DNA of 64,000 nucleotides from Escherichia coli. GTDB taxonomy: Bacteria > Pseudomonadota > Gammaproteobacteria > Enterobacterales > Enterobacteriaceae. Below the pieces are notes generated by a model. The model searched no databases, was not told the DNA's origin, and saw only the letters and a program-made list of their open reading frames with translations. The translations under genes and the position numbers were made by a program. Each line of letters opens with the position of its first letter. Position 1 is the stretch's first letter. Below are positions 16,556-16,966 of the stretch, piece after piece. The stretch lies in the NCBI RefSeq assembly GCF_044324875.1, contig NZ_CP172185.1. One strand, 5' to 3'.

Positions 16556-16966
16556 GATAAACGATATGTCATGACAATTTACAGACAGTATCGATATATA
16601 ATTCATATTTATTAATTTTTAATAATGATTCTCATCTGAGTATGTATCATACAATAAGCATTATAAATAACTAATAAATTATTTATTATATTTATATATT
16701 GCCCCACTCTTCAGTTATCCTGTCTAAAATAAATCTCTTTGTTTTCAAATGACTGTATTTTTATATAAAGTCAATCATTGCGAGCATGGATTCTTTTAGT
16801 TATATTACCAAGCAGCTCATATAATATTTTCAAGCCATTCTATCTCTTATTTTTTCTGTGGTTAACTACACCAGCTTTATTCATTTAAATAATTTGACTT
16901 ATTAAAGCTGAATGTAAAAATAATCGCCAATATTGCTTGGATTTTTTAACAAAAGGAAAGGTATAA
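16556..16966. promoter_or_regulatory. AT-rich leader/promoter region upstream of the fimbrial operon
   Basis: About 410 bp visibly far more AT-rich than flanking backbone, with AT palindromes (taataaattatttatta); SD-like aaaggaaagg before the pilin ATG. Confidence 0.45.

What the first reader, a model, noticed from the sequence alone, without database searches (positions are those of the whole stretch)
16556..16966. Regulator-less, extremely AT-rich control region suggests silencing or regulation in trans
The 410-bp region upstream of the pilin is visibly far more AT-rich than the flanking backbone and has AT palindromes. The island encodes no FimB/E-like recombinase, PapB/I-like regulator or other transcription factor. 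I looked for flanking inverted repeats of an invertible switch and found none convincing. Expression probably depends on host nucleoid proteins such as H-NS, or on regulators elsewhere.
Basis: inference. Interest (0 to 1): 0.35.

Follow-up and report, generated by a model that had tools for sequence, protein, structure and literature searches.

The report
AT-rich promoter region of Auf fimbriae
This is the very AT-rich control region in front of a variant of the known E. coli Auf fimbrial operon; it has no regulator gene of its own and is most likely kept silent by the nucleoid protein H-NS, which is ordinary for acquired fimbrial operons.

Summary
Bases 16556-16966 are 24.8% G+C, the lowest of any 411-nt stretch in the 64-kb window (next lowest elsewhere 34.1%). 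They lie between the glgP stop (16484) and the start of a 7-gene chaperone-usher operon (16967-24158). All seven products are structural: no recombinase and no transcription factor. The palindromes and the best flanking inverted repeat (10 nt) occur at chance frequency for this composition. The region has no GATC. Of 228 E. coli genomes carrying this allele, 227 match it over at least 80% of its length on one strand, so there is no sign of an invertible switch.

The operon is a 67-84% identical allele of aufABCDEFG of strain CFT073, at the same glgP-glpD site. For the CFT073 allele, published ChIP-seq lists aufA-G as H-NS/StpA-bound. Overexpressing TosR, a PapB-family regulator encoded elsewhere, raises auf transcripts about 6- to 100-fold. 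The window allele matches CFT073 in composition part by part.

This is a known kind of regulation on a known operon, so interest is low. One extra point: the translation-start region (16937-17026) is the most conserved stretch of the island.

The parts
16489..24489 (+). Auf-type fimbrial island inserted between glgP and the yzgL/glpD side of the backbone
   Evidence: K-12 homology stops at 16488 and resumes at 24490. G+C is 40% against 51% for the window.
16499..16550 (+). Hairpin plus T-run after glgP, likely the glgP terminator in auf-carrying strains. It replaces the K-12 terminator.
   Evidence: Inverted repeat I9: arms 16499-16510 / 16536-16547, 92% complementary, followed by TTTTT. The segment 16489-16560 is shared by both auf allele classes, 787 genomes. 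K-12 has a different hairpin here. Function is inferred; the terminator scan did not list it because the loop is 25 nt.
16556..16760 (.). Distal AT-rich tract (20-24% G+C, rich in TA steps): proposed H-NS/StpA nucleation and spreading zone
   Evidence: Composition. The sequence is only ~50% identical to the CFT073 allele, yet the AT content is kept (27% G+C in all four homologous upstream regions). H-NS binding is inferred from CFT073 ChIP-seq.
16578..16606 (+). Position homologous to the putative TosR motif site reported at -360 of CFT073 aufA
   Evidence: Table S2 of PMC5956150 gives the CFT073 site TTAATATATACCATTAATATATATTAAAT. It aligns here, with only the core AT..ATATATA conserved. This is weak evidence.
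16740..16770 (.). Predicted intrinsic DNA bend just upstream of the candidate promoter
   Evidence: In a wedge-model curvature profile the peak at ~16755 is in the top 0.14% of window positions. The model parameters were recalled from memory, so this is indicative only.
16778..16806 (+). Best candidate sigma-70 promoter: TTGCGA, 17 nt, TATATT. Predicted start near 16813, giving a 5' UTR of about 154 nt.
   Evidence: It is the top-scoring site with a composition-corrected matrix in the window. The same position is top-scoring in CFT073 (TTGCGG-17-TACATT). It lies in a conserved block, 78% identity, and was also found by the consensus scan. The start site has not been mapped.
16820..16825 (+). 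Perfect TATAAT conserved in both alleles, with a weak -35: an alternative -10 element
16894..16921 (+). Second promoter-like site: TTGACT, 16 nt, TGnAAAAAT. Not conserved in CFT073.
   Evidence: CFT073 has ATAACT and AAAAAC at the aligned positions.
16937..17026 (+). Translation-initiation block: end of the 5' UTR, Shine-Dalgarno GGAAAGG at 16955-16961, ATG at 16967 and the signal-peptide codons. It is the most conserved stretch of the island.
   Evidence: 93-98% identity to CFT073 against an island mean of 73%. ACAAAAGGAAAGGTA is invariant in the C. freundii and metagenome homologues. No significant RNA fold or covariation was found.
16967..24158 (+). aufABCDEFG-like operon: major pilin, chaperone, usher, two minor pilins, second chaperone, 383-aa adhesin-like subunit
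   Evidence: Pfam hits. 67-84% amino-acid identity to CFT073 AufA-G. A 97% identical protein is named AufA by NCBI.

Best explanation
The region is the promoter and leader of an Auf-type chaperone-usher fimbrial operon that was acquired horizontally and sits directly after glgP. It carries no regulator gene of its own.

The proposed mechanism has three steps.
1. H-NS, together with StpA, nucleates on the 20-30% G+C, TA-step-rich DNA upstream of aufA and on the 36-42% G+C operon body. It forms a filament that covers the promoter near 16778-16826 and keeps basal transcription low.
2. Expression needs factors encoded elsewhere that displace or remodel that filament. Candidates are AT-binding PapB-family proteins such as TosR, and conditions such as 37 C.
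3. The conserved translation-start block then gives efficient translation of the major pilin.

Shown here: the composition, the absence of cis-encoded regulators or switch elements, the identity with auf, and a promoter candidate conserved between alleles.
Shown by others, for the CFT073 allele only: H-NS/StpA occupancy and induction by TosR.
Inferred: that the same applies to this allele, and where the promoter and the nucleation sites lie.
For: Lowest-G+C stretch of the window.

Seven structural genes only.

Same site and gene order as CFT073 auf, 67-84% amino-acid identity. The published auf knockout primer sequence matches 16936-16969 exactly.

CFT073 ChIP-seq: c4204-c4214 are all in the H-NS-bound gene list. 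Scaled occupancy is 0.24 for aufA and 0.46-0.69 for aufB-G. aufA, B, F and G stay bound in the hns stpA double mutant.

Per-part G+C and TA-step values of the window allele mirror CFT073, and the lowest occupancy falls on the most G+C-rich gene, aufA.

TosR overexpression raises auf transcripts by log2 2.6-6.6; basal expression is low, and higher at 37 C than at 23 C.

AT-richness of ~27% G+C is kept in four diverged upstream regions although the sequence is not.

A promoter candidate is conserved in position between the alleles, with a predicted bend just upstream.
Against: No measurement exists for this allele. The ChIP-seq table is per gene and does not report the intergenic region itself.

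The 10-nt H-NS high-affinity motif (recalled from memory) is not enriched in the region: two sites at 2 mismatches.

Whether TosR acts directly on auf is unknown, and it was not checked whether strains carrying this allele have tosR.

Promoter-like sites in the region are no more frequent than in shuffles: 5 found, 4.6 expected.

The curvature parameters came from memory.
Confidence: 0.7

Rival explanations
1. The region is a fimS-like invertible promoter element, flipped by a tyrosine recombinase encoded elsewhere in the genome (FimB/FimE/FimX-type), giving phase-variable Auf expression.
For: A perfect 10-nt inverted repeat (16676-16685 / 16886-16895) brackets the candidate promoter with a 200-nt spacer. 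Orphan recombinases acting in trans are known in E. coli (own knowledge).
Against: A repeat this long or longer occurs in 33% of shuffles. The repeat is not conserved in the CFT073 allele. 227 of 228 genomes with this allele match the region over at least 80% of its length on one strand, which an inverted 200-nt segment would not allow. The B2-type alleles likewise align as a single piece with the operon. The island has no recombinase.
Confidence: 0.03
2. The region is a Pap-like epigenetic switch in which Lrp and Dam methylation of two GATC sites set ON and OFF states.
For: Auf responds to a PapB-family protein. Many E. coli fimbrial operons of the pap family use this switch (own knowledge).
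Against: There is no GATC anywhere between 16468 and 17100. No papI- or papB-like gene or ORF is present in the island.
Confidence: 0.01
3. The AT-richness is only compositional baggage of acquired DNA. The operon has a weak, essentially unregulated promoter, and H-NS binding has little effect on it.
For: Promoter-like sites are at chance frequency. Palindromes are at chance frequency. The distal 200 nt are not conserved in sequence between alleles.
Against: An AT content of ~27% G+C is maintained in four upstream regions that have otherwise diverged beyond alignment, in at least two different genomic contexts. auf transcripts can rise about 6- to 100-fold on TosR overexpression, so the operon is repressed or poorly activated in culture rather than intrinsically inactive. 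H-NS occupancy on auf is high.
Confidence: 0.15
4. The main control is post-transcriptional: the extremely conserved translation-start block (16937-17026) is the target of an RNA-binding protein or small RNA, for example CsrA on the AAGGAAAGG sequence.
For: The block is 93-98% identical between alleles that average 73%. ACAAAAGGAAAGGTA is invariant in distant homologues.
Against: No significant fold (z = -1.04) and no covarying pairs. No Rfam match. The conservation can be explained by a strong ribosome-binding site plus a conserved signal peptide. This would add to transcriptional silencing rather than replace it.
Confidence: 0.1

Closest known systems
aufABCDEFG (Auf fimbriae) of uropathogenic E. 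coli CFT073, c4207-c4214
   Same: Same chromosomal site directly after glgP and the same seven-gene order. 67-84% protein identity. Same intergenic length (482 vs 494 nt) and G+C (27.4 vs 27.1%). Shared terminator segment, shared promoter candidate and a nearly identical translation-start block. No cis-encoded regulator.
   Different: It is a distinct allele class: about 75% DNA identity, with the distal half of the control region not alignable by BLAST. It is found in about 228 of 5426 complete genomes, against about 558 for the CFT073-type allele. It lacks the three extra hypothetical genes c4204-c4206. Its aufG is intact, whereas CFT073 and UTI89 aufG are annotated as pseudogenes.
H-NS-silenced 'cryptic' chaperone-usher operons of E. 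coli, such as yad and ycb/elf
   Same: Regulator-less operons with AT-rich upstream DNA and low expression in culture. They are derepressed without H-NS: yad promoter activity rises more than 100-fold in a CFT073 hns mutant (PMC13245861). Cryptic fimbriae repressed by H-NS are noted in PMC3559732. Ycb is described there as the closest relative of Auf.
   Different: No hns-mutant expression data for auf were found in the papers searched. Only ChIP occupancy and the TosR effect are available.
fim (fimS invertible switch) and pap (Dam/Lrp/PapI/PapB switch) control regions
   Same: They are control regions upstream of a major pilin gene, are AT-rich and are influenced by H-NS.
   Different: Here there is no recombinase, no significant flanking inverted repeat, no orientation polymorphism, no GATC sites and no papI/papB genes.

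Membership tests
Auf chaperone-usher fimbrial operon | Seven genes in the order major pilin, chaperone, usher, two minor pilins, chaperone, large tip subunit | tested here: met
   Pfam domains of the seven ORFs between 16967 and 24158.
Auf chaperone-usher fimbrial operon | Location between glgP and glpD | tested here: met
   glgP ends at 16484. CFT073 aufA (C_RS19945 = c4214) is adjacent to glgP. In strain C4, glpD follows the operon.
Auf chaperone-usher fimbrial operon | Sequence relatedness to CFT073 AufA-G | tested here: met
   67-84% identity over full length for all seven proteins. A 97% identical protein is named AufA in NCBI.
H-NS (xenogeneic) silenced promoter | A+T content well above the genome average, with many TA steps | tested here: met
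   27.4% G+C against 51% for the window. TA-step frequency 0.131 against 0.045 in glgP.
H-NS (xenogeneic) silenced promoter | H-NS occupancy in vivo | not testable with these tools
   Published only for the CFT073 allele: c4207-c4214 are in the H-NS-bound gene list.
H-NS (xenogeneic) silenced promoter | Derepression in an hns mutant | not testable with these tools
   No such data for auf were found in the papers searched.
fimS-type invertible switch | Inverted repeats of 9 nt or more flanking the promoter, beyond chance | tested here: not met
   The best is 10 nt. One as long or longer occurs in 33% of shuffles, and it is not conserved in CFT073.
fimS-type invertible switch | Adjacent tyrosine recombinase gene | tested here: not met
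   No such gene in the island, nor in the annotated syntenic backbone covering the window from about position 4400 onwards.
fimS-type invertible switch | Both orientations seen among genomes | tested here: not met
   227 of 228 genomes with this allele match at least 80% of the region on one strand.
Pap-type Dam/Lrp switch | Two GATC sites in the control region, and papI/papB genes | tested here: not met
   No GATC from 16468 to 17100. No regulator ORFs.

The most novel reading that the evidence does not exclude
The AT-rich upstream tract may be more than a passive H-NS landing pad. It could be a selected, sequence-independent 'composition element'. It is kept at ~27% G+C in lineages where the sequence has diverged beyond alignment, and it is paired with an almost invariant translation-start block. 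Together these would form a two-layer control (silencing plus post-transcriptional gating) that lets a regulator-less operon plug into whatever counter-silencers the host happens to carry.
Probability: 0.1. Interest if true: 0.4.

Novelty: already known. Interest (0 to 1): 0.12.

Why it matters
It matters little beyond annotation. It places this window's fimbrial island as a second, non-B2 allele class of the Auf operon. It predicts that this allele is H-NS/StpA-silenced like the CFT073 allele. It also gives a concrete promoter candidate (16778-16806) and a conserved leader for anyone who wants to study Auf regulation, which the literature describes as poorly understood.

Tried and rejected
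H-NS 10-nt high-affinity motif (TCGATAAATT, recalled from memory): two sites at 2 mismatches in the region and no local enrichment, so uninformative.

Putative TosR motif as an IUPAC string: no match at up to 3 mismatches anywhere in the window. By hand count, the published CFT073 site itself mismatches the string at about 8 positions, so the scan says nothing.

Rfam scan at E up to 1: no match.

RNA folding of the putative leader and an alignment fold of four homologues: z = -1.04 and no covariation.

Small ORFs in the intergenic region (20-68 aa): none was pursued as a regulator candidate, and the 68-aa one has no Pfam hit.

Scan of genome contigs with an AufA alignment: found nothing, because the patterns were taken from the signal peptide. 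Homologues were reached instead through the protein search and contig look-up.

Buckles et al. 2004, the original auf paper, could not be read.

Co-occurrence of tosR with this allele was not tested.

Full report
**1. What is at the coordinates**

The window is E. coli chromosome: asd, glgBXCAP, then an inserted island, then glpD, glpEGR, rtcR, malT and onward. glgP ends at 16484.

The finding (16556-16966) lies in the 482-nt gap before a 234-aa fimbrial subunit gene that starts at 16967. The stretch is 24.8% G+C and the whole gap is 27.4%. The window as a whole is 51.1% and the operon coding sequence 41.2%. No other 411-nt stretch of the 64 kb is as low; the next lowest elsewhere is 34.1%. 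The compositional observation is therefore real and extreme for this window.

**2. The other parts of the observation**

- *Palindromes.* AT palindromes exist, but the best palindrome score is reached in 14% of dinucleotide-preserving shuffles of the gap.
- *Flanking inverted repeat.* The longest perfect one is 10 nt (16676/16886, 200 nt apart). One as long or longer occurs in 33% of shuffles, and it is not conserved in the CFT073 allele.
- *GATC.* There is none between 16468 and 17100, which excludes a Pap-type Dam/Lrp switch.
- *Regulator genes.* The seven ORFs from 16967 to 24158 hit only the Fimbrial, PapD_N/PapD_C and PapC_N/Usher/PapC_C families. The 148-aa and 68-aa ORFs tested have no hit. 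The small intergenic ORFs give no reason to suspect a regulator.
- *Rfam.* No match.

**3. Identity of the operon**

K-12 homology stops at 16488 and resumes at 24490, so the island is about 8 kb. From 24576 to 28499 the window carries an insertion-sequence block that is absent from the otherwise 99.4% identical strain C4.

The operon sits at the same site as aufABCDEFG of CFT073. The TosR paper gives aufA = c4214 = C_RS19945, and in the CFT073 record that gene is the fimbrial gene next to glgP. The seven proteins are 67-84% identical to CFT073 AufA-G. A 97% identical protein is named AufA by NCBI. The published auf knockout primer, GCTTGGATTTTTTAACAAAAGGAAAGGTATAAATG, matches 16936-16969 exactly.

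Among 5426 complete E. coli genomes, about 228 carry this allele (95% identity or more). About 558 carry the CFT073-type allele, at about 75% DNA identity. Outside E. coli the AufA family is narrow. One homologue is a Citrobacter freundii operon in a different chromosomal context with no neighbouring regulator. Another is a metagenome contig where the gene again follows a glgP.

**4. Anatomy of the control region**

- *16489-16560.* This segment is shared by both allele classes (787 genomes). It holds a hairpin plus T-run (16499-16550) that replaces the K-12 glgP terminator.
- *16556-16760.* This is the most AT-rich part (20-24% G+C). It is only about 50% identical to the CFT073-type allele (UTI89 sequence) in a forced alignment.
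- *Conserved blocks.* There are two: 16775-16834 (78%) and 16891-16990 (75-97%).
- *Promoter candidate.* With a composition-corrected sigma-70 matrix, the top plus-strand candidate is TTGCGA-17-TATATT (16778-16806). The top candidate in CFT073 is the aligned TTGCGG-17-TACATT. A perfect TATAAT at 16820-16825 is also conserved. The TTGACT-16-TGnAAAAAT site at 16894-16921 is not.
- *Caveat on promoter scans.* Promoter-like sites overall are no more frequent than in shuffles, so only the conservation gives weight to the first candidate.
- *Bend.* A wedge-model curvature profile peaks at about 16755, just upstream (top 0.14% of window positions). The parameters were recalled from memory, so this is indicative only.
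- *Translation-start block.* 16937-17026 is the most conserved stretch of the whole island (93-98% against a mean of 73%). ACAAAAGGAAAGGTA is invariant in the distant homologues. No RNA structure signal accompanies it.

**5. Evidence on mechanism**

All four homologous upstream regions are about 27% G+C, although only the ribosome-binding region can be aligned across them.

For the CFT073 allele there is published ChIP-seq (Hustmyer et al. 2022, PMC9765446, Data set S1E). The sheet is headed 'H-NS bound gene' and lists c4204 to c4214 without a gap, while the flanking glgP is absent from it. Scaled H-NS occupancy is 0.24 for aufA and 0.46-0.69 for aufB-G. aufA, aufB, aufF and aufG remain flagged as bound in the hns stpA double mutant. 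The authors report this for only 12% of bound genes and take it as a sign of the highest affinity.

The window allele has nearly the same G+C and TA-step values as CFT073 for every part. The least occupied gene, aufA, is also the most G+C-rich.

On expression:
- auf is weakly expressed in culture, and more at 37 C than at 23 C (PMC12890032).
- Overexpression of TosR, a PapB-family protein from the tos locus, raises auf transcripts by log2 2.6-6.6.
- The TosR authors state that TosR is the first regulator associated with auf, that direct binding is unproven, and that PapB-family proteins are thought to antagonise H-NS and Lrp (PMC5956150).
- Related regulator-less fimbrial operons behave the same way: yad is bound by H-NS in CFT073 and its promoter rises more than 100-fold in an hns mutant (PMC13245861). 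Cryptic fimbriae repressed by H-NS are noted in the E. coli fimbrial survey, which also names Ycb as the closest relative of Auf (PMC3559732).

**6. Best explanation and rivals**

The best explanation is H-NS/StpA silencing of an acquired, regulator-less fimbrial promoter, relieved in trans by counter-silencers. I put this at about 0.7. The main uncertainty is that nothing has been measured on this allele or on the intergenic DNA itself.

Rivals:
- *Invertible switch.* Made very unlikely by the chance-level repeat, its lack of conservation, the absence of a recombinase, and 227 of 228 genomes matching at least 80% of the region on one strand.
- *Dam/Lrp switch.* Excluded by the absence of GATC.
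- *Passive compositional leftover with a weak unregulated promoter.* Argued against by the maintained AT content across diverged homologues and by the large inducibility.
- *Post-transcriptional layer acting on the conserved translation-start block.* Possible, but unsupported by structure or covariation.

**7. Novelty**

The operon, its lack of a known cognate regulator, H-NS/StpA occupancy of the CFT073 allele and trans-activation by TosR are all published. The general pattern is textbook for acquired fimbrial operons.

What is new is minor. This is a second allele class of auf, with a diverged distal control region, an intact aufG, and without the three extra genes of the B2-type island. A conserved promoter candidate and an unusually conserved translation-start block can also be named. 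Interest is low.

Noticed in passing
window 24576-28499: A 3.9-kb insertion-sequence block lies downstream of the fimbrial operon and is absent from the otherwise 99.4% identical strain C4. It holds an IS110-family transposase ORF (24681-25532, minus strand), which has Pfam hits. It also holds two larger minus-strand ORFs (25644-26642 and 26416-28062) that look like an IS21-type istB/istA pair; that is a reading of their sequences, not a Pfam result.
   Followed up: partly
window 16937-17026: The last 30 nt of the leader plus the first 60 nt of aufA are 93-98% identical between the two auf allele classes, whose island-wide mean is 73%. The Shine-Dalgarno context ACAAAAGGAAAGGTA is invariant even in the C. 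freundii and metagenome homologues. No RNA structure or covariation was detected, so the cause is unexplained: a strong ribosome-binding site plus signal peptide, recombination, or a binding site.
   Followed up: partly
window 16489-24489; L004 5198-14625; L002: Two allele classes of the auf island occupy the same site: about 228 and about 558 of 5426 complete genomes. The CFT073/UTI89 class carries three extra hypothetical genes (c4204-c4206) with no Pfam hit, which are also H-NS bound in the published ChIP-seq. Its aufG is annotated as a pseudogene (internal stop or frameshift), whereas aufG is intact here (383 aa).
   Followed up: partly
window 16489-16560: In auf-carrying strains the K-12 glgP terminator is replaced by a different hairpin, which belongs to the island and is shared by both allele classes. 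So the island supplies the terminator of the upstream backbone gene.
   Followed up: partly
window 16967-17671: The major pilin is 234 aa, and the Pfam Fimbrial domain starts only at residue 62. The mature protein therefore seems to have an unusual N-terminal extension of about 35 residues (GDASQFGGADTDWSTVDYPKLTDMDNNTDAMGG), conserved in CFT073 AufA.
   Followed up: no
L005 8952-10000; L009 1-490: The Citrobacter freundii auf-like operon lies in another chromosomal context, after cobUST and an ABC transporter, with a gap of about 1 kb upstream. A metagenome homologue (71% AufA identity) again directly follows a glgP gene, which suggests the glgP site is used in more than one lineage.
   Followed up: partly
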